IMG/VR virus record: IMGVR_UViG_3300030049_000007
From: a virus
Strand: one strand, 5' to 3'
DNA length: 64,000 nucleotides
Below the pieces are notes generated by a model. It searched no databases, had not been told where the DNA came from, and saw nothing but the letters and a program-made list of their open reading frames with translations. Positions 43,641-58,764 of this stretch are shown here, one piece after another (the first letter of the stretch is position 1; the number at the start of each line of letters is the position of its first letter). Made by a program: the position numbers and the translations under genes.

Positions 43641-43670
43641 GAAATGCCTAGTCTATTTGATAGGCATTTC
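43641..43670 (+). promoter_or_regulatory. Perfect 10-bp intergenic hairpin
   Basis: GAAATGCCTA / TAGGCATTTC. Confidence 0.5.
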
Positions 43671-43694: not shown

Positions 43695-44042
43695 ATGAGT
43701 TTAATTAAATTAGCTATGCGAACTGGTAAAGCTATTAGAGGTTTATTTAGTGCCGTAGAAGCTGATGTTAAAAATTCTAGAAATGCAACTAAAAAAGCTA
43801 TTCAGGGCGCTTATGAAGGTGCCAAGAATGGTGATTTAGGTGCTGCTTATTTAAAACAACGTAAAATGAATAGTGATTTAGGTAAGAAGATTCGTAAATT
43901 AAGAGATCAGATTAAAGGTCATGAATCTGAAATTAAATCTCATAAATTAAAAGAAAAGATTATCGGTGGAGTTGGATTAGGAACTACCATTGGCGCTGGA
44001 AGTCTAGCTTTTCGTCATAAAAAGAATGTGGAGAAATTATAA
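43695..44042 (+). CDS. Small basic protein with MSLIKLA leader (putative internal virion protein)
   Basis: GAGGA RBS before ATG 43695; C-terminal IIGGVGLGTTIGAGSLAF. Confidence 0.7.
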   Translation: MSLIKLAMRTGKAIRGLFSAVEADVKNSRNATKKAIQGAYEGAKNGDLGAAYLKQRKMNSDLGKKIRKLRDQIKGHESEIKSHKLKEKIIGGVGLGTTIGAGSLAFRHKKNVEKL

Positions 44043-44317
44043 TGTCTATCGTAAAACTTGCTTTTAATCTTTCAGGGATTAAAGATGCAGTAGTTAATGC
44101 TGCTAAAGGTACTGCTATTAAATCTGAGGCTCATCGCCTTGAGAATAGTACCTTAACTTCATTACGCAGACTTCCTACTGCTGCTGATAAACTTAAACAT
44201 TTTGCTACTACTAAATCTGGCTTAAAATCTTTAGCTCCTAGTGCTGCTCTTTATGGAGGGGCTGCTTTAGGTGTTGGCGCTGCGGCAAAAGCTTTAACTG
44301 GCAAAAAGAATGATTAA
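44042..44317 (+). CDS. Small basic protein with MSIVKLA leader
   Basis: C-terminal AALYGGAALGVGAAAKAL. Confidence 0.7.
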   Translation: MSIVKLAFNLSGIKDAVVNAAKGTAIKSEAHRLENSTLTSLRRLPTAADKLKHFATTKSGLKSLAPSAALYGGAALGVGAAAKALTGKKND

Positions 44318-44663
44318 AGAAATTGCATTAAAATATGATGATTTAGGATTATTTAAACTTGCATCTATTCTTGAAAAAGATGGTGCGGTTAATCCTATGC
44401 AGATGGCCATTAGTAAGACTATGAATCCTGAACAGGGATTACATTATAATCTTGCTACCGATGCTGCCGCTGCTGCTAAAAAAGATCCTTCTAAATTAGG
44501 ATTAATGAGACAGCGTTTACAGGGATTAAAAAAGACTGGACCGTTAAGATTAGATGATGCTGTTAAATCTGGCATTGTTAATTCCTTAAAGAAACCTACT
44601 CCTATAGCAGAAGTTATTCCATTTGCTAATAAACTTAAATCTATGGCTTTAAAAGTGAAATAA
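44310..44663 (+). CDS. Small basic putative internal virion protein
   Basis: FKLAS motif; operon position. Confidence 0.6.
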   Translation: MIKEIALKYDDLGLFKLASILEKDGAVNPMQMAISKTMNPEQGLHYNLATDAAAAAKKDPSKLGLMRQRLQGLKKTGPLRLDDAVKSGIVNSLKKPTPIAEVIPFANKLKSMALKVK

Positions 44664-44664
44664 T

Positions 44665-44880
44665 ATGAGTTTAATTAAATTAGCATTTAAAGACTCAAAA
44701 GAATTAGATAGTGAATATATAGATAATAGATGGCTTGGAAGACGGGCAAGAGGTAAGTTATTAACTTATCCATTAGCTGCATTTGGAATGTTACCTGCTC
44801 CATTACTTGGACATTACTTAGATCATAGACGTAAAGAGAAAGATTTTATGAATCATCCTGAAAAATTTAAAAAGAAATAA
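44665..44880 (+). CDS. Small basic protein with MSLIKLA leader
   Basis: Hydrophobic LLTYPLAAFGMLPAPLLG. Confidence 0.7.
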   Translation: MSLIKLAFKDSKELDSEYIDNRWLGRRARGKLLTYPLAAFGMLPAPLLGHYLDHRRKEKDFMNHPEKFKKK

Positions 44881-44882
44881 TA

Positions 44883-46607
44883 ATGTATAAATTAATAGAA
44901 TCATCAAATATTCCAGAAGATCAACAAATATCTATCTCATTAGAAGATAGATATGAAAATGATTTTATTAAAACTGCTTCTAAAAGAGATTTACCAAAAG
45001 AAGTTGATGAGGCTATTAAAAATTTAAAACGTAAAAAAGATCATAGCTATATGTTAGTAACTGCTATGGGTGATGGTGAAACATGGTCTGATAATAAAAA
45101 TCATGATTATTTTCCATATGATTCATTGTTAGGATTACAAAATACTCCTGTTTGGAATGAAGTCTCACCTAAAGATGAAAGATTAAATAATAGAATAAAA
45201 GCTAAGTTACGTTATCAAACATTTAGTGACGCTGGCTGGTTTCATCATCATCATAACAAACCAGAGCGTGGAGATCAAATTTATGGTGAGGTTCCAAATG
45301 CTATTTGGAATCCAAAAATGCATACAGTACTTCTTATTATTGGAGTAGATAATAAAAAAGATCCTGAAACTGCTGAAATGATTAAAAGAAATCAATTAGT
45401 TGCAGTTTCTATGGGAGCTAAACTTCCATGGGATCGTTGTTCTATTTGTCATCAACATAATACTTCTATTATGAAATATTGTCCTCATCTTAAATTTCAA
45501 ATGGGTAAAATTTTAGATGATGGTCGTAAAATTTATGCTGAAAATTTATTTCCTAGATTTTTTGATATTAGTAAAGTAAATCGACCTGCATTTTTAGCCG
45601 GTATGCAATTAGAAAAAGTTGCTAGTACAGATTTTGAATTTAGTTTAGATCTTGCTGATTATTATGATATTGGACAATTTGATAAAGAGGCAGAAGAAAT
45701 AGAAAAACATTCTACCATTTACAAAGAAATGCCAACTCATATTGAAGGTGCAATAGCTAAAGTATGTAATACTGAAAGAGATCTTCCACATAAATTAATG
45801 GAAGAATTAGCTAAACTTAAACCTTCTGAAGCTTGGGGTGCTTTAACTCATGCCGGTATTATTGCTAAGCCAAATGAGTTTGCTTATATTTTATTAAAGA
45901 ATTCTAATCGTGATGATTTAGCTCAAGAATTTTATCATACTAAAGCAGTAATTAAAAATCCTGACGTAAAAGGATTAGATGAAGAATTGCATTCTTTAGC
46001 TGATATTGATATTACACATAAAGCCGTTAAATTATCTAATGAAATTCCTACTCATATATTAGATGAAAGATCTATTGGATGTGTTGGAGATAGAATTTAC
46101 AATACTGAAAAAGGTTTACGTAAAGAAGCCGAAATAACTAGAACTATAGGTCTTGGATCTATTCTTTCTGCATTATATTTATTATATCGTAATAACGCTG
46201 AAAGTAAATTTAGCGCTTATGGTTTATTAGGTTCTGGTATTTCTCAAATGATTAGAGACAATAAAGAGTCTGATAAATATATTAGTAATAATCCATTTAC
46301 TAATGAAGAGTTAAATAAACAAGCTGCCGCAGTTCCTGGTTTCTGGAATTCAGGCAAAGGATTATTAACTAAAGGAGCTATTGGTTTTGCAGCTCCATAT
46401 ATTGCTAGTGCCCACTACCAAAATAAAATGCAACAAGGATATCCTGTTGGAGTTTTAGGTAGAACTATTGCTAACAACCCTGGTAAAATGGGAATTGTTG
46501 GTGCCGCAATGGGAATGGCTGGTGCAAAGAATAGTTATAAAGCTATTAAGAATGTATCTAATGATTTAACAACTGGCGTAAGCAAAATTTTTAAGGATAA
46601 AAAATAA
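44883..46607 (+). CDS. Prohead (capsid maturation) protease with zinc insertion and long C-terminal extension
   Basis: NKNHD.F, HHHHNK, VSMG, CSIC...CPH, FFDISKV..PA, an HK97/assemblin-fold protease pattern; upstream of scaffold and MCP. Confidence 0.72.
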   Translation: MYKLIESSNIPEDQQISISLEDRYENDFIKTASKRDLPKEVDEAIKNLKRKKDHSYMLVTAMGDGETWSDNKNHDYFPYDSLLGLQNTPVWNEVSPKDERLNNRIKAKLRYQTFSDAGWFHHHHNKPERGDQIYGEVPNAIWNPKMHTVLLIIGVDNKKDPETAEMIKRNQLVAVSMGAKLPWDRCSICHQHNTSIMKYCPHLKFQMGKILDDGRKIYAENLFPRFFDISKVNRPAFLAGMQLEKVASTDFEFSLDLADYYDIGQFDKEAEEIEKHSTIYKEMPTHIEGAIAKVCNTERDLPHKLMEELAKLKPSEAWGALTHAGIIAKPNEFAYILLKNSNRDDLAQEFYHTKAVIKNPDVKGLDEELHSLADIDITHKAVKLSNEIPTHILDERSIGCVGDRIYNTEKGLRKEAEITRTIGLGSILSALYLLYRNNAESKFSAYGLLGSGISQMIRDNKESDKYISNNPFTNEELNKQAAAVPGFWNSGKGLLTKGAIGFAAPYIASAHYQNKMQQGYPVGVLGRTIANNPGKMGIVGAAMGMAGAKNSYKAIKNVSNDLTTGVSKIFKDKK

Positions 46608-47179
46608 TGGATCTCAAAGAATTTATAGAAAAAACAGAGCCAGAGGTCTTGCAAAAACTCGCGTCTGAAGCTCAAGATGAAATGGTTAATAAAGTAATAG
46701 ATGCTATCTTTCCTTTGTTAGAAAAGACCGCAAATTATACAGCACAGCTTGTCTTAGAAAAGATTGCCGAAGAATTATCTGAAAAGAAAGAACCTAAAGA
46801 AGAAAAGGAAGAGGTTGAAAATACCGATAATCCTAATGAGGAAAGTGCAGAACAAGCTGCTGTAGAAGATGAAAATGTTAAAATAGATAGTACTCCTGCT
46901 ACTGGTAATAAAACTAATGAAACTATGGACCCAACTAATACTCCAGGTGGTATGCGGGCTCAGGATATTAAAAATGCGGTAAGTGAAGCTTGCGAGGCTG
47001 GTCAATCTAATAAAATTATTCCATTTGTTAAAGCTGTAGGTGAACAATATCCTGATGCTATTCAGGAATTAATTAAAATGGTTAAAGTAGAATTACAAGC
47101 TGCTTTTTTAAATAAATCTATTGATGAGGAAACTGCTACTGCTCTTTCCGATGAATTAAATGCGATGGTGGGAGCTTAA
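46607..47179 (+). CDS. Acidic scaffold-like protein
   Basis: QKLAS, EKTAN, EKIAE; lies between protease and MCP. Confidence 0.55.
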   Translation: MDLKEFIEKTEPEVLQKLASEAQDEMVNKVIDAIFPLLEKTANYTAQLVLEKIAEELSEKKEPKEEKEEVENTDNPNEESAEQAAVEDENVKIDSTPATGNKTNETMDPTNTPGGMRAQDIKNAVSEACEAGQSNKIIPFVKAVGEQYPDAIQELIKMVKVELQAAFLNKSIDEETATALSDELNAMVGA

Positions 47180-47584
47180 ATGAGTGATAGTTTTATTGAT
47201 AAACTTTTAGCAGAAGCCGAATCTGAGATTGGTTCGGATTTAGAAAAGTCAGCTAATGATGAAAATGGTGCGCCCGATGCTCCATCTAATCAGGAACAGG
47301 GTGGTGGTGATATTTTAACTACTGCTCAAGCCTTTTTACAGAAAGTAGAACAGTTTAAAGCTGCTTTATCTCAGGGTGGGACTCCAGCAGAAGGTGATCC
47401 TAATGCGCAGCCTAATCAGGAAGATCAACCTGCCGAAGCTGCCGCTGCTCAAGCTGTAGGAGCTACTACTTCTGGTAATAGCACAGTAATGATTCAAAGA
47501 CCTGATGGAACGCAAATTAAATTAGCCTCTTTAGCTTCGTTAGTTTCGGCTAGAGGATCTAAACTTTTTAAAGAGGTAAATTAA
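47180..47584 (+). CDS. Acidic low-complexity head-assembly protein
   Basis: EKSAN, IKLAS. Confidence 0.55.
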   Translation: MSDSFIDKLLAEAESEIGSDLEKSANDENGAPDAPSNQEQGGGDILTTAQAFLQKVEQFKAALSQGGTPAEGDPNAQPNQEDQPAEAAAAQAVGATTSGNSTVMIQRPDGTQIKLASLASLVSARGSKLFKEVN

Positions 47585-47585
47585 A

Positions 47586-47969
47586 ATGGACCCAGTTCAG
47601 CAAGGTCAATCAGATCCGCTTCAGGATGCTTTACAGCTTTTAGATGAATCTGCTGCTATTATTCAAGAATTAACTGCTCAGATTCAGTCTAAGGGAAAAG
47701 ACGAAGATATGTCCAAGAAAGCGGAGGAAGTGGCCGTTAAATTAGGCGTGTCTTTTAATCAGGCTTCTGATATGATTAAGACTGCGAGCGAATCAGGTGA
47801 AAGTATCGATGCCATGGTAAAAATGGCCTCTATTATGAGACAGAATAGATCTTTTGGTTCCGTATATACAGAAGAAAAAGTAATTCCAATTTCAGGCTCT
47901 AAAGCAATTGATTCATTCATGGAAAAGCAAGCTGCGTTAATGGGTGAATTAGGACTTGACGAAAATTAA
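47586..47969 (+). CDS. Putative scaffolding protein
   Basis: Helical; SKKAE, IKTAS, VKMAS, EKQAA. Confidence 0.55.
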   Translation: MDPVQQGQSDPLQDALQLLDESAAIIQELTAQIQSKGKDEDMSKKAEEVAVKLGVSFNQASDMIKTASESGESIDAMVKMASIMRQNRSFGSVYTEEKVIPISGSKAIDSFMEKQAALMGELGLDEN

Positions 47970-47994
47970 CCATTATATCAAGGAGATATAAAAT

Positions 47995-48429
47995 ATGTTT
48001 AACATTCTCAGTGGCCTTCAGGAAGGTTCTCACTCAGTAATGATCACTAGCCGTTCTGGCCCCGCCGGACTGGTTAAAGGTACGGTTGTTCAGTTAACTG
48101 GTACTTCTAATACTATTGCTAAATCTGATAATAGCACCGTAGGTCTTGGATCTTCAATTGGTTTCATCTTTGAAGATCTGTTAAGTCAGACTTCCGGTTC
48201 TTATACCGTAGTTTATGGTGTCATGGAAGCTGAAACTGATCAGGTTTCTGGATCACCTGCCATTGGTTCTTATCTTAAGCCTGGCACTGGTGCTACTGCC
48301 GGTTTACTTATTGCAGCTAGTCTTCCTGGCGATGCTAATTTGGTTAAAGGTCAGGTAGCTGATAGTTACAGCATTGCTAATGATGCTCAGGGTATTAGCA
48401 CTTCGGTTTATCGTATCGTAACCTTTTAA
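47995..48429 (+). CDS. Capsid decoration/cement-like protein
   Basis: 144 aa, Gly/Ser/Thr-rich beta pattern, immediately before the MCP; strong RBS. Confidence 0.55.
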   Translation: MFNILSGLQEGSHSVMITSRSGPAGLVKGTVVQLTGTSNTIAKSDNSTVGLGSSIGFIFEDLLSQTSGSYTVVYGVMEAETDQVSGSPAIGSYLKPGTGATAGLLIAASLPGDANLVKGQVADSYSIANDAQGISTSVYRIVTF

Positions 48430-48462
48430 GATAAATTAAAAATTAAATAGGAGATTTTAATT

Positions 48463-49383
48463 ATGAGTAATATGATGGCTTCCCAGCTTTGGGATGTATT
48501 TACCGGAAAATCAGCTTCCGGTATGGAGAAGGTAGCCGCTCTTACTGAGGATTTTATTCGTGATCGCCTTCGTGAGACTAGCGTATTAAATCGCGCTATT
48601 CCTCCTGTAGTACTTACCGAAGCACAGATTGAACGTAATACTACTAATGACTGGCCTCTGAAGCGCGTTGAGATTGAGCCCGATTCTAAGGCTTTCACTC
48701 TTGGCTTCCGTGGTAAGGGTTCTGCTAACTTTATGGAAGGCAGAAAGTATGAAGTTTACTTTACCAAGATTGAAACTCAGCACTTTAAGAAGACCCGTGA
48801 AGAATTAATGACAATGCGTTATCCTCTTATGGATGTTGTGAATAACAACTTCGTACTGGATATGCAGGAACAGCTTGATGCTCTCTTTAAGATTAGACTT
48901 GATGCTTCCGTAGCCGCTTCCGGTAATACCTCTGCTGCTACTGCTGGTGCCGTAAAAGATAACTTTAAGAATGCAGTTATTACAGCGGTTCGTCAGGTGC
49001 TTGGTAAACGGCGTAGAGTTGCTCGCCTTATTATGACAGAATCAACTTGGCTGGACCTGGCTAAGCTCGAACCTGATAAGATTGGTTATGAGAATGTTGG
49101 ACGTATTGCGCTGAATGGCGTTGCTGCGGAAAAGACATTCTTAGGTTATGAAGTTATCACTTCGATTAACTCCACTACCGCTAATAGCGTATGGCCTGAT
49201 GATAGTATCTATGCCATTGCAATGCCTGAATTTTTAGGTTCTAACTTTATCCTGGGTGATGTTCAACAGGAAATGAAGCGTGAAGCTAATATTCTCGAAT
49301 GGTATTCATGGGCTGATCAGGGTGCTGAAATTGGTAACGTTGCCTCAGTTGCTAAGGTTACTGGTATTGCCTCTCTCACTTAA
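48463..49383 (+). CDS. Major capsid protein (probable HK97 fold)
   Basis: 306 aa; strong AGGAG RBS; biased codons; canonical position after protease, scaffold and decoration genes. Confidence 0.72.
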   Translation: MSNMMASQLWDVFTGKSASGMEKVAALTEDFIRDRLRETSVLNRAIPPVVLTEAQIERNTTNDWPLKRVEIEPDSKAFTLGFRGKGSANFMEGRKYEVYFTKIETQHFKKTREELMTMRYPLMDVVNNNFVLDMQEQLDALFKIRLDASVAASGNTSAATAGAVKDNFKNAVITAVRQVLGKRRRVARLIMTESTWLDLAKLEPDKIGYENVGRIALNGVAAEKTFLGYEVITSINSTTANSVWPDDSIYAIAMPEFLGSNFILGDVQQEMKREANILEWYSWADQGAEIGNVASVAKVTGIASLT

Positions 49384-49396
49384 ATAGGAGTTACAT

Positions 49397-49768
49397 ATGT
49401 CGTATGTCAAAGCTTTGTTTGGTCATATTACTGGAGAAGGTCTTTCGTTAAAAGAGGGGCAGATTGGATTTATTGAAGATAGTAAAAAGCATATCTTAAA
49501 TGATCTAGTTAAACGCGGTCTCGTTATTGTTAAAGATTCTCATGAAGAGGCTGAAGCTTTTAAGTTTATTTCTCGTCAGGAATTATTTAATAAAAGTTAC
49601 AAATCTTTAAATCCTCCTGAAGGCGAAAATGCTCCTGTTAGTTTAATTGATTGGGAAAATACTCAACCTACTATTATTAATGGAATCCCATCTAATTATA
49701 TTGTTGAAGAGCCTAAGAAAGAAGTTAAAAAAGTAGTAACTCCTCCTTCTTCAGATGATAAAAAGTAA
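49397..49768 (+). CDS. Hypothetical head-associated protein
   Basis: AGGAG RBS; follows the MCP. Confidence 0.6.
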   Translation: MSYVKALFGHITGEGLSLKEGQIGFIEDSKKHILNDLVKRGLVIVKDSHEEAEAFKFISRQELFNKSYKSLNPPEGENAPVSLIDWENTQPTIINGIPSNYIVEEPKKEVKKVVTPPSSDDKK

Positions 49769-49782
49769 ATTGTTATAATATG

Positions 49783-49820
49783 AAACAACTAAAAACCGCT
49801 TCTAGCGGTTTTTGTTGTTT
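49783..49820 (+). terminator. Intrinsic terminator
   Basis: AAAAACCGCT-TCT-AGCGGTTTTT. Confidence 0.75.
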
Positions 49821-49849
49821 TATGATATAATCAGATAGAGGTAACTCAC

Positions 49850-50686
49850 ATGATTAATCCACCCCAGACCTTTCCAAATGGTCAAATGACTCCACAAATT
49901 TTAATTAATCTTATTCGCATGTTTCTTCGAGATAAACCTAAATTAAATGCTTTAATTAAAAAAGAAGAAACAGATGATGATGAAATTAAATTAGCTATTA
50001 ATATGGCTATTAGTGATTGGAATAGCACTCCACCACTTTTAACTCACGTTGGATTAACTAATTTTCCAGTTATGGATTGGTTAATTGTGGCAAGTGCTAT
50101 GTTTATTTTGCAGTCTGCTGGTGTATTACAATATAGAAATGAATTGCAATTTAATGATAGTGGTATTACTACTAGTCCATGGACGAAGGGTCCAGCTTAT
50201 ATGGGCGTAGCTGGTATGTGGGCTCAATTAGTAGAAAAGAAAAAATATGAATTTAAACTTGCAATTAATTATGGTCGTACATTTGGTATTGTTAAAAGTG
50301 CTGAATATATGCTTTGGGATTACTCAGGACTTTATACTGGTCCAGACTATTTAACCGCTACAGGAACCTCCTCTATGTCTGCCGTCCCTGGTGGTATTCT
50401 AGGCCCGAATGGTCCCAGCGGTAGACCCCAGACCCCCCAGAAAACCGACCCATTTGTATTTGTAATGAGCAATTGGACCCTCGATCCGGTGAATAATCGT
50501 TACGTGATAAATTTCTATCACAATTTAAATTCAGATGTAGATGTTAGAATTACAGATCCAGTTACCGGAACTGATTTACGAAATAAAGTTAATATTGTTT
50601 TTCAGAATAAGAATGTATTATTTATTTGGGTTCCGATAGTACCTGATACTCGAATGGAAGGCCAGATGATTGCATTTAAACTTTAA
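49850..50686 (+). CDS. Head-tail adaptor/connector-like protein
   Basis: IRMFLRD...TDDDEIKLAINMAISDWN helical adaptor pattern; position. Confidence 0.55.
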   Translation: MINPPQTFPNGQMTPQILINLIRMFLRDKPKLNALIKKEETDDDEIKLAINMAISDWNSTPPLLTHVGLTNFPVMDWLIVASAMFILQSAGVLQYRNELQFNDSGITTSPWTKGPAYMGVAGMWAQLVEKKKYEFKLAINYGRTFGIVKSAEYMLWDYSGLYTGPDYLTATGTSSMSAVPGGILGPNGPSGRPQTPQKTDPFVFVMSNWTLDPVNNRYVINFYHNLNSDVDVRITDPVTGTDLRNKVNIVFQNKNVLFIWVPIVPDTRMEGQMIAFKL

Positions 50687-50702
50687 TTAATAGTTAAAAA
50701 AT

Positions 50703-50726
50703 AAAGCCCCGGTTAAGGGGCTTTTT
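50703..50726. terminator. Bidirectional terminator
   Basis: AAAGCCCC-GGTTAA-GGGGCTTT. Confidence 0.75.
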
Positions 50727-50727
50727 A

Positions 50728-50919
50728 TTATTTAGTTTCTAAAAGAACTGAATCTAAATCTGGCCATATCTTATCTGGGCGTTTACTCAATTCAATTAAT
50801 ATATCATGGGATATTTTAGGTCTTTTAAAAATAACTAATTCTTTTCTATTAATCCAATAAATTCTACCAAAAATTAATACTAAAGAAGAAAACCAGATTA
50901 TTATAATTATATACCACAT
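50728..50919 (-). CDS. Small membrane protein
   Basis: N-terminal hydrophobic helix; follows promoter copy 3. Confidence 0.6.
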   Translation of the reverse strand: MWYIIIIIWFSSLVLIFGRIYWINRKELVIFKRPKISHDILIELSKRPDKIWPDLDSVLLETK

Positions 50920-50930
50920 ATTATATTACT

Positions 50931-50967
50931 TCCATTTATATTATAACAAAATTATTCTAATAATTGC
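50931..50967 (-). promoter_or_regulatory. Conserved phage promoter, copy 3
   Basis: GCAA-N18-TATAATATAAATGGA. Confidence 0.7.
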
Positions 50968-50974
50968 AGATAAT

Positions 50975-51001
50975 AAAAAAGACCTCAATAAGAGGTCTTT
51001 T
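50975..51001 (-). terminator. Intrinsic terminator of the tail operon
   Basis: AAAAGACCTC-AATAA-GAGGTCTTTT. Confidence 0.7.
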
Positions 51002-51023
51002 ATATTTAAGATATAATCTATAA

Positions 51024-51743
51024 TTAAGATGAAGAAGTTCCCGTACCCTTTACCGGAACTAAACGATCGAATGCAAAACTAATACCTTCAACCATAATCA
51101 ACTGTCCAGCAGATTGATTAAAGTTATGAGAATTGATTTTAACTCCTTCTGCATAAATTCCACCTACTGCATGATTAGCTATGTCTTGCATATAAATACA
51201 GATTCCGAAGGGTGTGCGAAGCCTAATGTCCCACATTGACATCCACAAATTCGTATTTGAATCTGCCTGCATTACCTTATCAGGATTGCTAGTAATATTA
51301 CTCCATGCATTAGCAACGTACGTCTGTGCAGTTCCTGAGTCAGTCATCATACCAGTAATACCAATTGATGTTAAGTTTCCATTATCATCATAGATATTAC
51401 CATAACAAGAACGAGCTAATGATGGTCCGTTATATACAAGACGTGACATTGAGCCACCACCAACTGGAGTGCCATTTAAAATATGCACTCTCATTGATCC
51501 AATCTCAGGTAATCGTTGCTGTGGAATCTGTTGACTAATTGCAATATTTGGAGTTAAACCAATTCTAACTACATCAAAAGCGGCAGTAGCCTTAGCTGGT
51601 CCAAAAGCAATAAGTGTAGATTCAGCAGCAATAAACAATCCAGGGGTGGCCATATTTTCATCTAACTGGACGAAGTTCTCTTTCCAACTCCAAGTTGAAG
51701 TGCCATCCCCAGATCCTAAAACATCAGCAATAGAAAGAGTCAT
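51024..51743 (-). CDS. Putative tail tube protein
   Basis: Follows the sheath genes; IG..NIAISQ...EIGS and C-terminal EGV.I....FN.SA....VEGISFAF tube-like pattern. Confidence 0.6.
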   Translation of the reverse strand: MTLSIADVLGSGDGTSTWSWKENFVQLDENMATPGLFIAAESTLIAFGPAKATAAFDVVRIGLTPNIAISQQIPQQRLPEIGSMRVHILNGTPVGGGSMSRLVYNGPSLARSCYGNIYDDNGNLTSIGITGMMTDSGTAQTYVANAWSNITSNPDKVMQADSNTNLWMSMWDIRLRTPFGICIYMQDIANHAVGGIYAEGVKINSHNFNQSAGQLIMVEGISFAFDRLVPVKGTGTSSS

Positions 51744-51755
51744 ATCTAATCCTTT

Positions 51756-52778
51756 TTAATTAACGTAAAGCAGAATATTTACAAAGTTTGCAGGATATCC
51801 AATTTCGACAGTTACGGAAATTTCAATAGTACCTACAGTAAGATCGGTATTAGCACCATCTAAATTAGCGCGAAGAGTTGGCGTAGCATAACTAATAATC
51901 AAAGCACCACAATAAGCAGATTTATTAGACTGAGCACTATACATATATAAATCAAGTACTGAAGCTATCTGGGTAAGTAAGTCCTGATTAATATTATACT
52001 TACCGATATAAGGTTTGGTAGATGAGTATAAGTCTAACGAAAGTTTATCTACTGCTTTAGTAATACTGAATTCTTGTTCCTGAATAGAAACCGTACTAGT
52101 TGTTTTCTGATGACGACTATAGATATTGCCACCTGGAGTATCTTGTACTAAAACGAAAACTCCATTTTCGCTAAGTTTATTTAACTGAGTAGGTGTAAAA
52201 TAAGTATTTGAATAAAGTAATTTATAAGGTCCACCAAAACCTAAATTGGTAAATGATTGCTGTGCGGGGTAAGTTGCCATAGCAGCAGCGGTACAAGCAG
52301 CAAGAGCAGATCCGTTCACGGTTTCAGTTAAAGCTGAATCCCAATATGCTTCTGGAGGCCAAATATAAAGAACGCGTTTTGAAGCATAAGAAGAAGCTGT
52401 AGCTGCAATAGAAGTTACTTGTTCATCTTTGGTAAGATAATGTATAACTTGATAAGTGAAAGTATCACCAGTTCCTAATGCTAAATTATACTGGGCAGAC
52501 TGTGAAGAATCTGTAATTCCAACTCCATTTACATATGGAATGGCCTTTAAAGAAGTCTCACTTGTAACTTCGCTTACTAAAATAGAATCGTAAGCAAAAA
52601 CTGCTACATTTGGTGTAGCTCCTACTGATAATAATTTACCACTAACTAATGGATTTCCTGAATTAGTAGTAGTGTAGGCAGTATTAGTTACACTTATCGT
52701 AGCTACGGTATCGCCAATCTTAACACCAGCAGTGAGAAATCCTGTTCCAGTTATAACTAATGGTTGTAATGCAGTCAT
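51756..52778 (-). CDS. Tail sheath protein, C-terminal half
   Basis: KRVLYIWP, LAAC.AA, QLNKLSENGVFVL, EFSITKAVD, YIGK, IEISVTVEIGYPANFVNI. Confidence 0.7.
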   Translation of the reverse strand: MTALQPLVITGTGFLTAGVKIGDTVATISVTNTAYTTTNSGNPLVSGKLLSVGATPNVAVFAYDSILVSEVTSETSLKAIPYVNGVGITDSSQSAQYNLALGTGDTFTYQVIHYLTKDEQVTSIAATASSYASKRVLYIWPPEAYWDSALTETVNGSALAACTAAAMATYPAQQSFTNLGFGGPYKLLYSNTYFTPTQLNKLSENGVFVLVQDTPGGNIYSRHQKTTSTVSIQEQEFSITKAVDKLSLDLYSSTKPYIGKYNINQDLLTQIASVLDLYMYSAQSNKSAYCGALIISYATPTLRANLDGANTDLTVGTIEISVTVEIGYPANFVNILLYVN

Positions 52779-52794
52779 TTATGTATCTCCTAAT

Positions 52795-53763
52795 TTAGCT
52801 ATGAGTATAAGTTTCTGAAACCAATATAGAAGATACTGGTAAAGTTGCATTAAGTAAGGTCGCTCTAAAATAACTAGAAGCTGGTTCTGACATTGTAGTA
52901 ACATGAGCGGCATAGGCTTCTGCTACATTTGTACTATTACTTAAAGGAACTAGTAAATAGATATCCTGTCTAGTAGATAAGTCACTTAATGCCGTTATGT
53001 AAGAAGTGTCAGTTTCGTCAGTTAAGATATAAGCTAAAGTTTCTGATCCACCATTAGCGGTAGGAGCAACGGTTCCTAAATAGAAACCCAATGGATTACT
53101 AATCGTTACATCCATATCTACTTTTAAATCATCAAGATTAGTTACATCGTAAAAACCAGTAAGATCTTTTCTAAGGGCTATATAAGAAATATAAGGTGTT
53201 CCAGCTATAATATTATAAGTACCATATTCAAGAGAAGTAAAAGTAAATGAAGATGAGGCATAAGAAGCTCCTCCAATTATAGCAGTTACATTTCCAACAC
53301 TTCTTTGAATTGTAAAGGCGTCAGCTATTGCAGCGGGATATGAAATAATTTCATTAATAGTAGCCACATCGCCATTGATTGATTTAATTGTATAACTACC
53401 ATGAGTAAGAGTATTAAATATGATGGAATCACCAGCTACGGCATTTAAGAACGAACCTGTCGTTCCCTGAATAATATTTCCACTAGCAACTAAGGCCGAT
53501 CCAGTAACGGCACTTGTTCCGATCTGCACATATGCATTATTAATAGTAATTGCAATACTGGAAGTTTTAATAATAGCAGATAAAGCTAACCCTGGATAAA
53601 CTATAGTTGCACTAGTTATTGGAAAAGTTAAATTAATAGGTGAGTTAGTTACTACCTGATTAATTGATCCAACGAAACAAGGTAACATAGAACTATTAGC
53701 CAGATTCTGACTAGAACGAAGTAAAATCTGAGTAACAGAAACGCCGGGTAATGTATAAGTCAT
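52795..53763 (-). CDS. Tail sheath protein, N-terminal half
   Basis: MTYTLPGVSVTQ start; YITALSDL...IYLLVPL...AHVTTMS. Confidence 0.65.
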   Translation of the reverse strand: MTYTLPGVSVTQILLRSSQNLANSSMLPCFVGSINQVVTNSPINLTFPITSATIVYPGLALSAIIKTSSIAITINNAYVQIGTSAVTGSALVASGNIIQGTTGSFLNAVAGDSIIFNTLTHGSYTIKSINGDVATINEIISYPAAIADAFTIQRSVGNVTAIIGGASYASSSFTFTSLEYGTYNIIAGTPYISYIALRKDLTGFYDVTNLDDLKVDMDVTISNPLGFYLGTVAPTANGGSETLAYILTDETDTSYITALSDLSTRQDIYLLVPLSNSTNVAEAYAAHVTTMSEPASSYFRATLLNATLPVSSILVSETYTHS

Positions 53764-53772
53764 ATTAAAATC

Positions 53773-54441
53773 CTATTCAATATTTAAAGCAGTTGAGCCA
53801 TTAAGTTTAAGTTGAATGTTAGTTAATTTATCTTTACTCAGCAATCTAGCAATGTAAGATCTTTCCATTTGAATCTGTAATATAGTAGAAGCTGTAAAAG
53901 ATGTGTTACCCTTCTCAAATATTTGCGGTGCAGTATTTGTTACAGTTCCCTGCACTTGAAGTCCCAAATCTCTATAAGATCTAAGATCTAAAGAAATAAA
54001 AGAAGTTACCATTGCACTTAAAGCTTCTGCTTCCAAATCACTCTCTGATATACATTCTACCACAATTGGGAAAGAAACATAATCCTTATATGCAGTTTTT
54101 TCATTAGTTCTACTTACCGAAAAAACTCTACCTTGACCCAAAGTACCATTTGCTCCATTTATTAAATTTCCTCTATATATTAATGCTGCTGGTCTTTTAT
54201 TTCTATATTTTTCTTCCCATTGAAATTTAGTTCCAATCCATAAAGATTGATATGACTCTTCTTTATTGGTATCGTCACTATATAATATATAACCTAAATC
54301 TTTATTTATAGAAAACATCTCTTGTAAATAAAGAATAGTAGCAGTTACACCATAATAACCCGGATTAAAATTCTTACTATATAAAAATTGTTTATAATCC
54401 ACAGGAGATTCTCCAGTCTCTTCTAAAGATATTAAATTCAT
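53773..54441 (-). CDS. Putative tail terminator/completion protein
   Basis: Lies upstream of the sheath; KRPAALIYRG. Confidence 0.45.
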   Translation of the reverse strand: MNLISLEETGESPVDYKQFLYSKNFNPGYYGVTATILYLQEMFSINKDLGYILYSDDTNKEESYQSLWIGTKFQWEEKYRNKRPAALIYRGNLINGANGTLGQGRVFSVSRTNEKTAYKDYVSFPIVVECISESDLEAEALSAMVTSFISLDLRSYRDLGLQVQGTVTNTAPQIFEKGNTSFTASTILQIQMERSYIARLLSKDKLTNIQLKLNGSTALNIE

Positions 54442-55222
54442 CTAATGTATAAGCTGTAATATCTATAGGAAGTAATTGAGCTGGATTATCTGCTCTTAAT
54501 TGTGTCATGTTTAATATTTGACGTACCGTATTACTACTGATAGATGTAGGAACTATTCTATCAATTTTATATCGCTGAGAAGGTTTCTTTAAAAATGCCA
54601 AAATATCATCAGCAGCAATTAATACTTCGTTAGATGTCCATGCCGATAAAGCTACAGCTTCAGATACTCCATAATCGGTTTTATCTATTTGAATTGGTTG
54701 CTGATCGGTATTTATATATATTTTTACTGGAGCAAAATAACCTCCAACAAACGTTGTACCGAAACAAACAGGACATTTTGGAAGAATTGATTTTTTCTGA
54801 ACTTTATCATAGCATAAAGTACAACGATCACCAAATTTTCTTCTAGCAAAATGTAAACATTCTTGACCAAATCTTTTTAAATATAATATTTCTTGTTCAG
54901 AAATGTAATCGCTAATAAAATTATCAGCTTCATTAAATAAACAAAGATTATCAGAATAAAATACAGCATCTGAATCTATATCTACCGCTTTTACTCTATA
55001 AAAAATTCTTTGATCTATCATACCTCTTTGCGTTACTGTGTCTACAAATCCAAAAGCATAAATTGGATCTGTATATAAATCAGTCCATGGACCTAATTCG
55101 CCTTCCGAAATCTGAACTATATATCCAAAATGAGATACGGTTTCCTTACTCTCTGGTTCTATATTCCAATAAAGAGTTGTTGCTGCATATGTTAAATTTT
55201 TGCATTCAAGATATATGAGCAT
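54392..55222 (-). CDS. Putative neck/head-closure protein with FN3-like N-terminus and zinc finger
   Basis: FYRVKAVD; CTLC...CPVCFGTTFVGGY. Confidence 0.5.
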   Translation of the reverse strand: MLIYLECKNLTYAATTLYWNIEPESKETVSHFGYIVQISEGELGPWTDLYTDPIYAFGFVDTVTQRGMIDQRIFYRVKAVDIDSDAVFYSDNLCLFNEADNFISDYISEQEILYLKRFGQECLHFARRKFGDRCTLCYDKVQKKSILPKCPVCFGTTFVGGYFAPVKIYINTDQQPIQIDKTDYGVSEAVALSAWTSNEVLIAADDILAFLKKPSQRYKIDRIVPTSISSNTVRQILNMTQLRADNPAQLLPIDITAYTLDEFNIFRRDWRISCGL

Positions 55223-55670
55223 CTAATTCTCTTACTAAAAGATCATTCAACTGCTTTCCAACTTTAGCAGTATGTTGCTTAATAAAATCCATATCACCCA
55301 TTAAAGCTGGATAATACTTAGTAAACATTAAATCTAAACTATTAAGTTTATTAGCTGAATCTAGTTCACCAATAAAACTTGCATTAAGTGATTCGAATTT
55401 ACCAATACGATCTCTGATAAATTCTGTAGCAAAATCAAAAAATCTAGGATTACGAAACGCGGGAGGAAGATGTTTTAAATGAATAACCAAAGCATTATCC
55501 AATGGTCTGATTACTGATTCAAATAAAAAACAAGTCATTTGATCTGAAAATAATTCTGGCATACTATTTGAATCAATTGGATTTTCTGTAAACTTCTTCA
55601 TTAATTCTTGGTCACGTTCTGTAATTTTATTCTGACCAGCTTTTAATCTTAGATCTGACAATGACGACAT
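55206..55670 (-). CDS. Hypothetical protein
   Basis: 154-aa ORF with RBS. Confidence 0.6.
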   Translation of the reverse strand: MSSLSDLRLKAGQNKITERDQELMKKFTENPIDSNSMPELFSDQMTCFLFESVIRPLDNALVIHLKHLPPAFRNPRFFDFATEFIRDRIGKFESLNASFIGELDSANKLNSLDLMFTKYYPALMGDMDFIKQHTAKVGKQLNDLLVRELDAHIS

Positions 55671-55679
55671 TTCATTCTC

Positions 55680-56138
55680 CTATTTCTTTACATTCTTATC
55701 GTTAGGCATATATTGATTTAATAAAGAACCATCTAATACATTCTTATCATTTATTTTATAATAAATGACTATACGATAAAACATTGGATTTTCTTTATCT
55801 TTAGTTGTAAATTCTCCAATATAACATAACTTAATTTCTTTAGCCCAATCCTTATTTATTAAATCATCATATTCGTCTAAGTGAATTCTAGAAATAATCT
55901 CACCAAAAAAACTAAATTTCTTTTTTAATTTCTTTTCTTCTAAATCAGTAATATCGCTATACTGAAAAATAATAAAAGGATTGCCAAACATATCTAATCT
56001 AATATCATTATCAACTATATGATATTTATGATTATTATTAGCAATCTTATCTAAAAGTAATACATATTCACCTAATTCATCAGTATTAGTTAATTCAAAA
56101 TATTCGGAATGAGATTTTACGACTGGCGTTTTTTCCAT
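55680..56138 (-). CDS. Hypothetical protein
   Basis: 152-aa ORF. Confidence 0.6.
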   Translation of the reverse strand: MEKTPVVKSHSEYFELTNTDELGEYVLLLDKIANNNHKYHIVDNDIRLDMFGNPFIIFQYSDITDLEEKKLKKKFSFFGEIISRIHLDEYDDLINKDWAKEIKLCYIGEFTTKDKENPMFYRIVIYYKINDKNVLDGSLLNQYMPNDKNVKK

Positions 56139-56944
56139 GGACCCAAATCCCTTACGTTAGTATTCATTAACTTCTGCCAATTATCGAATCTGGCTATACG
56201 ACGCGCTCTGGCTTCAGGAGTTGACATTAAGCGATCTGCTAATATATGTTTTCCAATTAATTTATTATAAAAAGGTTTATTAGCAGCCTCTAATTGAGAT
56301 CTCCAATAATTATCTTTAAAATATTCTTTATGAATTTTAGGCATCATAGATAATTTACCATGTGTAAAATTCATCATTTTCTTAACAGATCCACCTAATG
56401 CGCCACCAATTAATCCACCTTTAGCCATACCTTTTAATTTTTCATGCTCATTATCTCCCTGAGTATATCCAATAGCGGCACCACTAATAGTTCCTAAATG
56501 AGCGGTTGGAACTTTCTTAGCTACACTTAAAAATTTATGAGCATCATTACCTAAATTAATCATTCCCTCAATATTTTTAATTTTAAATTGACCATCATCT
56601 GAAATGGAATGTTTTAATATACTTTTAGCAATTCTATTAGTTCCCGTGGGAACATTATGAATATCTTCTAATGCATTAATTCCCATACGTCCAAACTGTC
56701 CAAGTAATGCACCATCTATAAAAGCGCCTCTTAAAGTAGTTGAGTCTTGAACTAATCCTTTTCTTATATTAGCTTCAGCTTGTGCTACTCCAGCTAAAGC
56801 TGATCTTTGTATAATATTTTTTCTAATAGGACCATTAGTTCTAGACATCATAAATTTTAATGGATTCCCAGATCTAGCTGCTCTCATACTATAAAAACTA
56901 GGGAATAAACTACCCGGATTAAATGCTAATTTTATTAAACTCAT
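56117..56944 (-). CDS. Basic protein with MSLIKLA leader and glycine-zipper segments
   Basis: LGTISGAAIGY...GMAKGGLIGGALGG; coupled to the portal gene. Confidence 0.7.
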   Translation of the reverse strand: MSLIKLAFNPGSLFPSFYSMRAARSGNPLKFMMSRTNGPIRKNIIQRSALAGVAQAEANIRKGLVQDSTTLRGAFIDGALLGQFGRMGINALEDIHNVPTGTNRIAKSILKHSISDDGQFKIKNIEGMINLGNDAHKFLSVAKKVPTAHLGTISGAAIGYTQGDNEHEKLKGMAKGGLIGGALGGSVKKMMNFTHGKLSMMPKIHKEYFKDNYWRSQLEAANKPFYNKLIGKHILADRLMSTPEARARRIARFDNWQKLMNTNVRDLGPWKKRQS

Positions 56945-58764
56945 ACCTTCGCCTTTTCGGGAGTAGATTTTGGACCTTTAACTTCAGGTAATGGATCTGC
57001 TGAAACCCCATTTAATTCTGCCATAACTTTCATATAAACTTCTGGATCTTTAGCTTGCAAATTTCTTAATTCTTTTTGTCTATCAGCATAAGATAAATCT
57101 TTAAATTTATTCACAAATCCACGAGTAGTTGTAGCCATAAATCCATCACCTATATTAGATTGAGCAGATTGAGTTTCTTGACCTTGTAATAATTGTGTTC
57201 TTAAATTAACATCAACTTGACCTTCATTAGTAACTTGAGAAACTTCTTTATTAACTTCAGCAGCAGCCAATTGTCTAGCTGCTTGAATTCTCTCAAGGAA
57301 GGGTTTATCATCTTCCATTTGCTTAGCTTCATCGGCAATATTAATACCAACTTGAGCCAAAGCTGTACTTTCACTAATACGACCCTGCGCACCAAGATTT
57401 GAAAGCATTTGAATTTGCTGAATATCATCAGCCATTTTAAATGGTTTAAGTTTAACACTACTTGGAGCTTGCTTATTGGTCATACGTGCTAAATAACGTA
57501 CTAAAAATCTAATAAATGTATTTTGTTTATTAATATAATATAAAAATAAATTCTCTAACATACGTAAAGAAATATTAGATCCGCTCCAAGTCATACCACC
57601 ATAAATTAATTCTGGTGGAATTCCTAATTGAGTAAGAATTCTACGATCCTGTAATTCAATTTCTTCCCGTAAAGACATAGCTTTTCCTTGGCCACCCAAA
57701 GCCTGATAGCCAACAGGAAAAGGAACAACTCCAATTTCATTGGGATCATTTTGCTGTCTCTTTAATTGAGTAGCTACAATACCCATCCATGCAGCACCAT
57801 CAATTTTACTTAACGGATCAGTGCCACTAGACGACGTTGGAAATATAAATCTATTAGGAAGAAAATGATCTGAAGCAATACATTCCTGAGCCTTACGTAA
57901 AATAAAACTCATAAATAAATCGTTCCATGCTGAGAAGAAAAATGGTTTTGATAATCCTTCCCATTCTGGTTCTGTAATGCCTTCATGCTGATAATGAAAA
58001 GTTAATTCAGCAGGTAATTCTATTACTGGATTAATTGGATTTTGTTTGCAAGCTAATATGAAAGTTTCTGGAACATTAGCTACTACAAATTTATCACCCT
58101 TCATAATTGGTTTAGAATATTTATCTTCGATACGATAATAAATTTTCTTTTTACCAGCAATACCTAAATCTCTTACTTTAATAAACTGAACAGGCCATCT
58201 CTGAATTCTAATATTTTTAATGAATTCATCGCCTTCTAACAATTCATCTTTAACCTTCATTACACCTTGAAATTTACAATTTTTATTAGAACATTTAGCT
58301 AGAAATTTATAATCCCTAAATTGCCATTCAAATTTACGATCTTCATCAGTAATACAATGTGCTTTATAAGTATTACAATCAGGACAAGCTAAATAACGTT
58401 TAAATGGAGGAACTATAGATACTATAGCATTTCCAAAAGTATAATAATCTTTTCCATTTTTAACTAATTCATCTTGAATACATAATTCATCATTAAGTAA
58501 TTTAGACCAATAATTTTTATCTTCTCCAATATCATTATCTACTACCACGGGAGTAATAGGATATCGTGACATAGTATCGGTAATACGATCTAAAAGACCA
58601 GAAGATTCGTTTAAAACAATAGCCCATTTAAAAATTTCATTTAAAGTCTTTGGTCTTTGAAGATGTAATAAATTATAAAATCTTTGAGGATACTGCAAGC
58701 CGTTCATTGGATAACGACGACCAGTCTCCGGTGCTACTACTGATGTTGTAGATACATTAGTCAT
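56941..58764 (-). CDS. Portal protein
   Basis: 607 aa; DYYTFGNAIV, ILTQLGIPPELIYGG, ISESTAL; Gln-rich C-terminus. Confidence 0.72.
   Translation of the reverse strand: MTNVSTTSVVAPETGRRYPMNGLQYPQRFYNLLHLQRPKTLNEIFKWAIVLNESSGLLDRITDTMSRYPITPVVVDNDIGEDKNYWSKLLNDELCIQDELVKNGKDYYTFGNAIVSIVPPFKRYLACPDCNTYKAHCITDEDRKFEWQFRDYKFLAKCSNKNCKFQGVMKVKDELLEGDEFIKNIRIQRWPVQFIKVRDLGIAGKKKIYYRIEDKYSKPIMKGDKFVVANVPETFILACKQNPINPVIELPAELTFHYQHEGITEPEWEGLSKPFFFSAWNDLFMSFILRKAQECIASDHFLPNRFIFPTSSSGTDPLSKIDGAAWMGIVATQLKRQQNDPNEIGVVPFPVGYQALGGQGKAMSLREEIELQDRRILTQLGIPPELIYGGMTWSGSNISLRMLENLFLYYINKQNTFIRFLVRYLARMTNKQAPSSVKLKPFKMADDIQQIQMLSNLGAQGRISESTALAQVGINIADEAKQMEDDKPFLERIQAARQLAAAEVNKEVSQVTNEGQVDVNLRTQLLQGQETQSAQSNIGDGFMATTTRGFVNKFKDLSYADRQKELRNLQAKDPEVYMKVMAELNGVSADPLPEVKGPKSTPEKAKV

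What the first reader, a model, noticed from the sequence alone, without database searches (positions are those of the whole stretch)
43695..56944. Shared 7-residue leader MS(L/I)(I/V)KLA on four otherwise dissimilar basic proteins: putative capsid-targeting tag
Seen: MSLIKLAM (43695), MSIVKLAF (44042), MSLIKLAF (44665) and MSLIKLAF (56944, minus, in the portal operon). Three share near-identical DNA, ATGAGTTTAAT(T/A)AAATTAGC, and the sequences diverge after the tag. Known: T4 internal proteins use a cleavable 10-aa capsid-targeting sequence. Inference: a modular tag ending in the K-x-A site loads interchangeable cargo into the head for injection, which could be used for protein packaging.
Basis: partly seen in the sequence, partly recalled or inferred. 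Interest (0 to 1): 0.8.

Follow-up and report, generated by a model that had tools for sequence, protein, structure and literature searches.

The report
Clip-off head-loading tag on phage proteins
An uncultured 157-kb phage starts 13 unrelated small basic proteins with the same 7-residue tag, MSLIKLA, which ends in the predicted cutting motif of its head-maturation protease; it is most likely a new, non-T4 version of the "load into the capsid, then clip off" signal, but no experiment shows this yet.

Summary
All four leaders lie exactly where stated. The complete 157,395-bp genome has 13 such proteins, against about 0.002 expected by chance.

Conservation stops right after Ala7. Fifty-one tagged proteins from this phage and its relatives fall into 39 unrelated groups. 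Orthologues down to 32% identity keep M1, K5 and A7.

The last five tag residues fit a motif, hydrophobic-x-K-x-A. This motif:
- is 10-17 times enriched in the acidic scaffold-like proteins around a T4 gp21/herpesvirus-assemblin-fold protease;
- brackets the protease domain in 16-17 of 19 homologues;
- ends the capsid protein's N-terminal extension in every relative examined, including cultured Salmonella phage Arash and Vibrio phage D69.

Three tagged genes fill a variable slot just upstream of the protease gene. The fourth overlaps the stop codon of a fold-confirmed portal gene.

Best reading: a protease-clipped propeptide that marks head-internal cargo, working like the T4 capsid-targeting sequence. 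It differs in cut motif (Ala, not Glu, at P1), in length and in phage family.

Cleavage, encapsidation and injection are all inferred. The tag could be a cleavage site only.

This scan has found similar tags before on other DNA, mostly in T4-like phages with x-E motifs.

The parts
43695..44042 (+). Tagged gene 1, 115 aa, pI about 10. The tag MSLIKLA is coded by 43695-43715. C-terminal Gly-rich hydrophobic stretch plus basic tail.
44042..44317 (+). Tagged gene 2, 91 aa, pI 10.3. The tag MSIVKLA is coded by 44042-44062 with different codons (TCT, ATC, GTA, CTT). C-terminal Gly/Ala-rich stretch plus basic tail.
   Evidence: orthologues in L006 and L009
44310..44663 (+). Basic 117-aa protein conserved just upstream of the protease. 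It has a longer N-terminal extension that ends LFKLA before Ser19.
44665..44880 (+). Tagged gene 3, 71 aa, pI 9.9. The tag MSLIKLA is coded by 44665-44685.
44883..46607 (+). Prohead maturation protease, 574 aa. The gp21/assemblin-fold domain spans about residues 50-248. Invariant His123 and Ser176. K-x-A motifs sit at residues 30-32 and 245-247 in disordered borders.
   Evidence: phrog_18299 E 3.4e-11; T4 gp21 5jbl_A Z 9.1, rmsd 3.0, 127 aligned, and VZV protease Z 8.4
42955..43632 (+). Acidic (pI 4.6) scaffold-like protein, 225 aa, with 9 hydrophobic-x-K-x-A motifs (40 per 1000 aa). It ends in a Gly/Ala-rich stretch plus basic tail.
41713..42924 (+). 403-aa head-module protein with 10 motif copies (24.8 per 1000 aa).
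46607..47969 (+). Three acidic head-module proteins (190, 134 and 127 aa; pI 4.2-4.4) rich in the motif.
48463..49383 (+). Major capsid protein, 306 aa. Its N-terminal extension ends MEKVA at residue 25 (coded up to 48537). The same arrangement occurs in all relatives examined.
   Evidence: phrog_2522; 25.7% identity to the Arash major capsid protein
56117..56944 (-). Tagged gene 4, 275 aa, pI 10.4. The tag is coded by 56944-56924. Contains a glycine-zipper domain at residues 151-191.
   Evidence: PF13488 26.4 bits against a cut-off of 25; orthologue alignment A2
56941..58764 (-). Portal protein, 607 aa. Its stop codon overlaps the start of tagged gene 4.
   Evidence: model pLDDT 74.6; Foldseek portal hits
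59178..60104 (-). 308-aa protein in the portal operon with four motif copies in its first 110 residues.
40096..41673 (+). Large terminase, which heads the head module.
   Evidence: phrog_675 E 2e-55

Best explanation
MSLIKLA is a short N-terminal propeptide. Its last five residues (L-I-K-L-A) present the recognition motif of the phage's own gp21/assemblin-type prohead protease, which is predicted to cut after the Ala of hydrophobic-x-K-x-A.

Proteins carrying the tag are co-assembled into the prohead interior with the acidic scaffold-like proteins and the protease. When the protease fires, it removes the tag, trims the capsid protein and degrades the scaffold. This leaves a variable set of small, very basic proteins, often with glycine zippers, in the DNA-filled head. 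They are presumably released with the DNA.

Shown here by computation:
- the tag, its sharp boundary, and its modularity and purifying selection;
- the motif's concentration in head proteins and at the protease's domain borders;
- the protease fold;
- the position of the tagged genes in the head and portal operons.

Inferred: cleavage itself, encapsidation, that the tag rather than another part does the targeting, and ejection.
For: 1. Thirteen tagged proteins against about 0.002 expected. A sister phage fragment has 12 matches against 0 in the control.
2. Information content is about 3.6-4.3 bits at positions 1-7 and about 0.4-1.0 at positions 8-16, across 39 unrelated groups.
3. Orthologues of the 275-aa protein down to 32% identity keep M1, K5 and A7 invariant. 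An indel-rich variable stretch follows.
4. Codons vary (33 distinct 21-mers among 51), so selection acts on the peptide.
5. Motif density is 2.4 per 1000 aa genome-wide but 16-40 in four head-module proteins next to the protease gene.
6. The motif ends the capsid protein's N-terminal extension in this phage, in L011-L016, in Arash and in Vibrio phage D69.
7. The motif brackets the protease domain in 16-17 of 19 homologues, in segments of pLDDT below 50.
8. The protease has the T4 gp21 fold (Z 9.1).
9. Distant relatives have different leaders that still end K-x-A: MLVKIA, MIVKLA, MFIHGFQKLA, MDKVA, MFKSA. These sit mostly on small basic glycine-zipper proteins in the head module.
10. The slot between the scaffold-like gene and the protease gene holds 2-4 different tagged genes in each relative.
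11. Tagged gene 4 overlaps the stop of a fold-confirmed portal gene.
12. Five of 13 tagged proteins share a C-terminal Gly/Ala-rich stretch plus basic tail with the scaffold-like protein (Fisher p 8e-6).
Against: - There are no proteomic or biochemical data for this phage.
- The only particle proteome in the family (Arash) lists 116 proteins, including ribonucleotide reductases. Its 'coverage' column reads 100% for proteins with only 2 unique peptides. It can therefore show neither location nor N-terminal trimming.
- The leader is more constrained than the internal sites: Ser2, Ile/Val at P4, Leu at P2, and a variable, often hydrophobic P1'. Internal sites favour Glu/Asn/Asp at P4 and Ser/Glu/Ala at P1'. 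So the two may not be read by the same site.
- Seven residues (five in D69) leave little room for a targeting determinant separate from the cut site. In T4 the two were mapped to different residues of a 10-mer.
- S-L-I-K-L also fits the ClpX N-motif-1 pattern.
- Gly-zipper hydrophobic stretches could mean these are membrane proteins of the infected cell rather than capsid contents.
Confidence: 0.6

Rival explanations
1. Cleavage-only propeptide. The prohead protease removes the tag, but the tag does not address the protein. Targeting comes from other parts, for example the C-terminal Gly/Ala-rich stretch plus basic tail shared with the scaffold-like protein, or charge attraction to acidic scaffold or DNA. 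The tag would serve as a safety catch or maturation switch.
For: - The C-terminal module is shared by 5 of 13 tagged proteins and by the scaffold-like protein, but by only 2 of the other 236 proteins.
- In Vibrio phage D69 the leader is only M-x-K-x-A, with no room for a separate address.
Against: - Eight tagged proteins lack the C-terminal module, including the 247-aa and 293-aa ones.
- Ser2, Leu3, Ile4 and Leu6 are conserved far beyond what the internal sites need. This points to an extra binding role.
Confidence: 0.22
2. Host-protease degron. After Met removal, S-L-I-K-L mimics the ClpX N-motif-1 (polar, hydrophobic, hydrophobic, basic, hydrophobic). Free copies of these basic, possibly membrane-active proteins would then be degraded by ClpXP. 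The tag would have nothing to do with the capsid.
For: - N-motif-1 examples STAKL (Dps), TNTAKI (lambda O) and TIKV (GapA) are listed in PMC9775585 Table 2.
- Ser2 is conserved in 34 of 39 groups, which permits Met excision (own knowledge).
Against: - It does not explain the invariant Ala7 and the sharp boundary after it.
- It does not explain the same K-x-A inside the scaffold-like proteins, the capsid protein and the protease borders.
- It does not explain leaders of 10-11 residues ending K-x-A in relatives.
- It does not explain the placement of the tagged genes in the head and portal operons.
Confidence: 0.07
3. A DNA- or RNA-level feature: an AT-rich translation-start enhancer, or a short recombination handle that moves gene cassettes, with no role for the peptide.
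For: - Three of the four window copies share 19-20 of 20 nt.
- Codon 2 is AGT in 8 of 10 Ser-tagged genes, against 27% genome-wide usage (binomial p 7e-4).
- Cargo genes change locus between relatives.
Against: - Synonymous codons vary at every position: 33 distinct 21-mers among 51, with Leu coded by TTA, CTA, CTT, CTC, CTG and TTG.
- Conservation is at the amino-acid level and stops at a codon boundary that coincides with the protease motif.
- A DNA handle may coexist with the peptide role.
Confidence: 0.05

Closest known systems
Phage T4 capsid targeting sequence (CTS) of internal proteins IPI, IPII, IPIII and Alt, removed by prohead protease gp21; and the polymorphic CTS-bearing basic proteins of other T-even phages (PMC9026906)
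   Same: - A short N-terminal propeptide is shared by otherwise unrelated, basic, poorly conserved proteins.
- It ends in the prohead protease's motif, which also occurs in the scaffold and capsid proteins.
- The protease has the same fold.
- The cargo set varies between related phages.
   Different: - There is no sequence similarity to MKTYQEFIAE.
- The tag is 7 residues, not 10-19.
- The predicted cut is after Ala with Lys at P3, not after Glu in (L/I)-x-E.
- The phage belongs to the Arash-like family with a single-chain RNA polymerase, not to T4-like phages (capsid protein 25.7% identical to Arash).
- There are 13 cargo genes per genome, many with glycine zippers.
- Function is not shown experimentally.
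Propeptides of phiKZ and SPN3US giant-phage head proteins, cut by gp175/gp245 at (S/A/G)-x-E or A-x-E (PMC10052503)
   Same: - A gp21-type protease processes many head and ejection proteins and itself.
- Several motif copies occur within the propeptides.
- The protease is detectably similar to those of jumbo phages of Erwinia and Dickeya and to phage G gp19.
   Different: Those cleavages are described there only as producing N-terminal propeptide regions, some holding several motif copies. No short tag shared by unrelated proteins is reported, and P1 is Glu.
Encapsulin cargo-loading peptides (own knowledge, not tested here)
   Same: A short conserved peptide on diverse cargo directs it into an HK97-fold shell.
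   Different: These peptides are usually C-terminal, are not removed by a protease, and bind the shell protein directly. No sequence relation.
ClpX N-motif-1 degrons (PMC9775585 Table 2)
   Same: The pattern polar, hydrophobic, hydrophobic, Lys, hydrophobic at the extreme N-terminus.
   Different: A degron needs no Ala at position 7 and does not recur inside head proteins.

Membership tests
T4-type capsid targeting sequence system | One short N-terminal peptide shared by otherwise unrelated proteins of one phage | tested here: met
   13 proteins in the genome. No similarity after the tag. 39 unrelated groups across relatives.
T4-type capsid targeting sequence system | The peptide ends in the motif that also marks the capsid protein, the scaffold proteins and the protease itself | tested here: met
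   Hydrophobic-x-K-x-A occurs in the tag, in the capsid protein N-terminal extension, in the acidic scaffold-like proteins and at the protease domain borders. That the motif is a cut site is inferred.
T4-type capsid targeting sequence system | gp21/assemblin-fold prohead protease encoded by the phage | tested here: met
   5jbl_A Z 9.1, rmsd 3.0, 127 residues; 1vzv_A Z 8.4. phrog_18299. Invariant His123 and Ser176.
T4-type capsid targeting sequence system | Cleavage after Glu in (L/I)-x-E, and similarity to MKTYQEFIAE | tested here: not met
   The tag contains no Glu. The recurrent motif has Lys at P3 and Ala at P1. So this is an analogue, not a member of the T4 sequence family.
T4-type capsid targeting sequence system | The tag is necessary and sufficient for encapsidation and is removed in the head | not testable with these tools
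   Needs virion N-terminomics and reporter fusions. The Arash proteome cannot resolve it.
T4-type capsid targeting sequence system | Cargo are small basic proteins whose set differs between related phages | tested here: met
   pI 9.6-10.4 for all 13. The slot upstream of the protease has different content in L006-L012.
Glycine zipper domain (Pfam PF13488) | Score above the curated cut-off | tested here: met
   275-aa protein scores 26.4 bits against a cut-off of 25, residues 151-191. The 99-aa protein scores 16.1 bits, below the cut-off.
ClpX N-motif-1 degron | N-terminal polar, hydrophobic, hydrophobic, basic, hydrophobic | tested here: inconclusive
   The pattern fits. ClpXP dependence cannot be tested, and the host is unknown.
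Shared tag read by a radical-SAM maturase (raised by an earlier finding) | A radical-SAM enzyme encoded with the tagged genes | tested here: not met
   No PF04055 match in the complete genome. The control search hit 14 of 14 genomes.

The most novel reading that the evidence does not exclude
The tag is a true portable capsid address, the shortest known (7 residues; 5 in cultured Vibrio phage relatives). It works because the cargo's N-terminus docks in the substrate groove of the still-inactive protease, or on the scaffold core. A whole uncultured phage family uses it, together with a C-terminal Gly/Ala-rich plus basic module shared with the scaffold, to load dozens of interchangeable glycine-zipper effectors for delivery with the DNA. 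The protease would have a specificity (Lys at P3, Ala at P1) not described for any prohead protease I could find.
Probability: 0.35. Interest if true: 0.75.

Novelty: new variant of a known kind. Interest (0 to 1): 0.6.

Why it matters
- It would take the T4 "tag, load, clip" principle beyond T4-like phages, into a large and almost unstudied family: the Arash-like phages that carry their own RNA polymerase.
- It predicts a new prohead-protease specificity, K-x-A.
- It gives a simple sequence rule for listing the proteins a phage of this family probably carries in its head. Such proteins are prime candidates for early-acting or anti-defence factors.
- The rule can be tested at once in cultured relatives (Salmonella phage Arash, Vibrio phage D69). 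A 5-7-residue packaging tag would be a handy tool for loading proteins into phage heads.

Tried and rejected
- Pfam and PHROGs on all 12 tagged proteins that were scanned gave nothing beyond glycine zippers.
- The ESM Atlas on the 275-aa protein gave only glycine-zipper leads below 0.9.
- Foldseek against the PDB with the whole protease model gave no hit at E <= 0.001. The VIA-align wide search was needed. A profile search of PDB sequences found nothing for the protease or the portal.
- Arash was scanned for a uniform short leader over about 96 kb (two stretches of the genome). None was found, only longer N-terminal extensions ending K-x-A. The 50-95 kb stretch was fetched but not scanned, and the rest of Arash was not fetched.
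- Phage G: the protease has K-x-A at its borders, but the capsid protein N-terminus does not.
- No paper holds MSLIKLA or its variants.
- Radical-SAM maturase reading: rejected, no such gene.
- Host Prp-type cleavage, as for Staphylococcus phage 80alpha capsid and scaffold leaders (own knowledge): rejected. The motif differs, and the K-x-A system also occurs in phages of Salmonella and Vibrio.
- Sec, Tat, lipoprotein or prepilin signal: rejected on sight. The tag has no hydrophobic core of signal length, no Cys and no G-F-T-L-I-E type site.
- About ten metagenome hits to the 20-nt word were set aside as likely chance or non-phage contexts.
Full report
OBSERVATION

The 20-nt word shared by three of them occurs 3 times in the window against 0.11 expected. 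At the first site the longest ORF starts at 43644, but the ATG at 43695 has a GAGGA 7 nt upstream, so the tagged form is the likely product.

The window is part of a complete 157,395-bp phage genome (31.7% G+C) with direct terminal repeats. Across that genome, twelve ORFs start M-x-[LI]-[IV]-K-L-A and one starts MGLVKLSA. Composition predicts about 0.002 at gene starts. All thirteen have pI 9.6-10.4, while only 15% of the phage's proteins reach pI 9.5. After trimming the tag they show no significant similarity to each other. None matches a Pfam or PHROG family except glycine zippers.

THE TAG IS A DISCRETE, SELECTED PEPTIDE MODULE

A sister phage fragment of 112 kb has 12 matches to a degenerate pattern for the tag and none to the control pattern. 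Its copies use many synonymous codons.

From this phage and related contigs I collected 51 tagged proteins, which form 39 unrelated groups. Information content is about 3.6-4.3 bits at positions 1-7 and 0.4-1.0 bits at positions 8-16. Positions 1 and 3-7 were part of the search pattern. Position 2 (Ser in 34 of 39) and the drop after position 7 were not.

Orthologues of the 275-aa protein down to 32% identity keep M1, K5 and A7 invariant and S2 and L3 in at least 90%. An indel-rich, variable stretch follows directly.

One constraint at the DNA level remains. Codon 2 is AGT in 8 of 10 cases against 27% genome-wide usage.

WHAT THE TAG ENDS IN

The motif hydrophobic-x-K-x-A occurs at 2.4 per 1000 residues genome-wide. 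In four proteins next to the gene at 44883-46607 its density is 24.8, 40, 15.8 and 31.5. Most of these copies read like L-E-K-[TVI]-A followed by Ser, Glu or Ala. Three of those four proteins are strongly acidic (pI 4.3-4.6); the 403-aa one has pI 8.6.

The gene at 44883 is a prohead protease. It matches phrog_18299. It is similar to the proteases of Vibrio phages D69, D181 and D148, of Arash, of phage G and of jumbo phages of Erwinia and Dickeya. Its model's best structural matches are T4 gp21 (Z 9.1, rmsd 3.0, 127 residues) and the varicella-zoster virus protease (Z 8.4). His123 and Ser176 are invariant in 19 homologues.

The motif sits at residues 30-32 and 245-247 of the protease. These lie in the disordered segments on either side of the folded domain, and the motif is kept at both places in 16-17 of 19 homologues down to 26% identity.

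The major capsid protein (48463-49383) has M-E-K-V-A ending at residue 25. Every relative examined has K-x-A at the matching place: L011-L016, Arash, D69.

This is the pattern that (L/I)-x-E shows in T4 and A-x-E in SPN3US. I therefore take K-x-A to be the protease's site. That is an inference; nothing here shows cleavage.

THE TAG ACROSS THE FAMILY

Relatives with at least 60% protease identity carry MSLIKLA on many different proteins.

More distant clades have other leaders that still end in K-x-A:
- MLVKIA and MIVKLA in L012;
- MFIHGFQKLA and M-SFRDGFDKTA in L014;
- MDKVA and MFKSA in cultured Vibrio phage D69.

These leaders mostly sit on small basic proteins with glycine-rich stretches, encoded in the head module. 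In the roughly 96 kb scanned, Arash has no uniform short leader, only longer extensions such as that of Gp224, which end K-S-A.

So the family-wide constant is K-x-A near the N-terminus. The extra conservation of Ser2, Leu3, Ile4 and Leu6 is specific to this clade.

GENE CONTEXT

Three tagged genes, plus a conserved basic gene with an 18-residue extension ending L-F-K-L-A, fill the gap between the acidic scaffold-like gene and the protease gene. In relatives this gap holds 2-4 basic, mostly tagged genes (none tagged in L011) that differ in number, size and identity. One of them, in L010, is the orthologue of a gene that lies 40 kb away in this genome.

The fourth tagged gene starts on the stop codon of the 607-aa gene. 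I confirmed that gene as the portal by folding it (pLDDT 74.6) and searching the PDB: the top hits are all portals, with E down to 5.7e-9.

The other tagged genes lie among tail and virion-enzyme genes.

A SECOND SHARED MODULE

Five of the 13 tagged proteins end in a Gly/Ala-rich uncharged stretch followed by a basic tail. So does the acidic scaffold-like protein. Only two other proteins in the genome do (Fisher p 8e-6). By eye, similar stretches also occur in the C-terminal part of the protease and in scaffold-like proteins of relatives. This module may be the part that binds the core or shell, which keeps the cleavage-only rival alive.

MECHANISM

The most likely mechanism is as follows. Tagged proteins enter the assembling prohead with the scaffold core and the protease. 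The protease then cuts after Ala7. The basic mature proteins stay with the DNA.

This matches how the T4 CTS is described: 10-19-residue propeptides that bind the core and are removed by gp21, borne by basic, poorly conserved proteins (PMC9026906).

It is not a member of the T4 sequence family. The motif, the length and the phage lineage all differ.

RIVALS

- Cleavage only, with targeting done by another part of the protein.
- A ClpX N-motif-1 degron, which S-L-I-K-L resembles (PMC9775585). This does not explain Ala7, the internal copies or the longer leaders.
- A purely DNA- or RNA-level role, which the synonymous variation contradicts.
- A radical-SAM maturase tag, raised by an earlier finding of this scan. 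This is excluded: the genome has no such gene.

LIMITS

No virion data exist for this phage. The Arash particle proteome detects Gp224, the protease and the scaffold-like proteins. However, it lists 116 proteins, and its coverage column shows 100% for proteins with two peptides. It cannot show location or trimming.

EARLIER WORK IN THIS SCAN

The scan has reported similar tags on other DNA, mainly in T4-like phages with x-E motifs. The same tag was also noted in two other windows of this genome.

Noticed in passing
window 44883-44900; L015:10001-10030: The protease's own N-terminus is conserved as M-[YI]-K-[LV], with Lys3 in at least 90% of 19 homologues. In L015 it reads MSLVKLIH, almost the cargo tag. 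The protease may use a tag-like N-terminus for its own incorporation.
   Followed up: partly
window 3468-5207: A 579-aa protein just after the RNA polymerase gene has six hydrophobic-x-K-x-A motifs. It is weakly similar (E 6e-4) to Arash Gp218, an abundant particle protein. It may be another protease substrate.
   Followed up: partly
window 42955-43632 and the tagged genes at 43695 and 44042: A C-terminal Gly/Ala-rich uncharged stretch plus basic tail is shared by the acidic scaffold-like protein and 5 of 13 tagged proteins (8 of 250 proteins in all). It is a candidate core- or shell-binding module.
   Followed up: partly
L021:3054-3203 (genome 112053-112202) and genome 117091-117543 (-): Near-tags: a 49-aa ORF starts MSLIKLC, and a 150-aa ORF on the other strand starts MSLIKY. 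They may be decayed or variant tags.
   Followed up: no
L021:3772-4032 (genome 112771-113031, - strand): An 86-aa ORF begins with a long Met-Ala dipeptide repeat (MAMAMA...).
   Followed up: no
window 56941-58764 and 44883-46607: Both the portal (Cys127, 130, 158, 163 in at least 90%) and the protease (Cys186 invariant; Cys189 and Cys200 in at least 90%) carry conserved cysteine clusters that look like zinc-ribbon insertions.
   Followed up: no
genome-wide tag codon 2: Ser2 is coded by AGT in 8 of 10 tagged genes against 27% genome-wide usage (p 7e-4), and by AGT or AGC in 9 of 10 in the sister phage. So ATGAG at the start is itself favoured.
   Followed up: partly
L020:4268-4567 (genome 23267-23566): A tagged 99-aa gene ends 10 nt before the start of the 1995-aa single-chain RNA polymerase gene. 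In Arash the polymerase subunits are the most abundant proteins of the particle preparation (PMC10585845).
   Followed up: no
PMC10585845 Table 2: The 'coverage' column gives 100% for proteins identified by only 2 unique peptides, so it is probably not sequence coverage. The list of 116 'structural' proteins includes ribonucleotide reductases and RNA ligases.
   Followed up: partly
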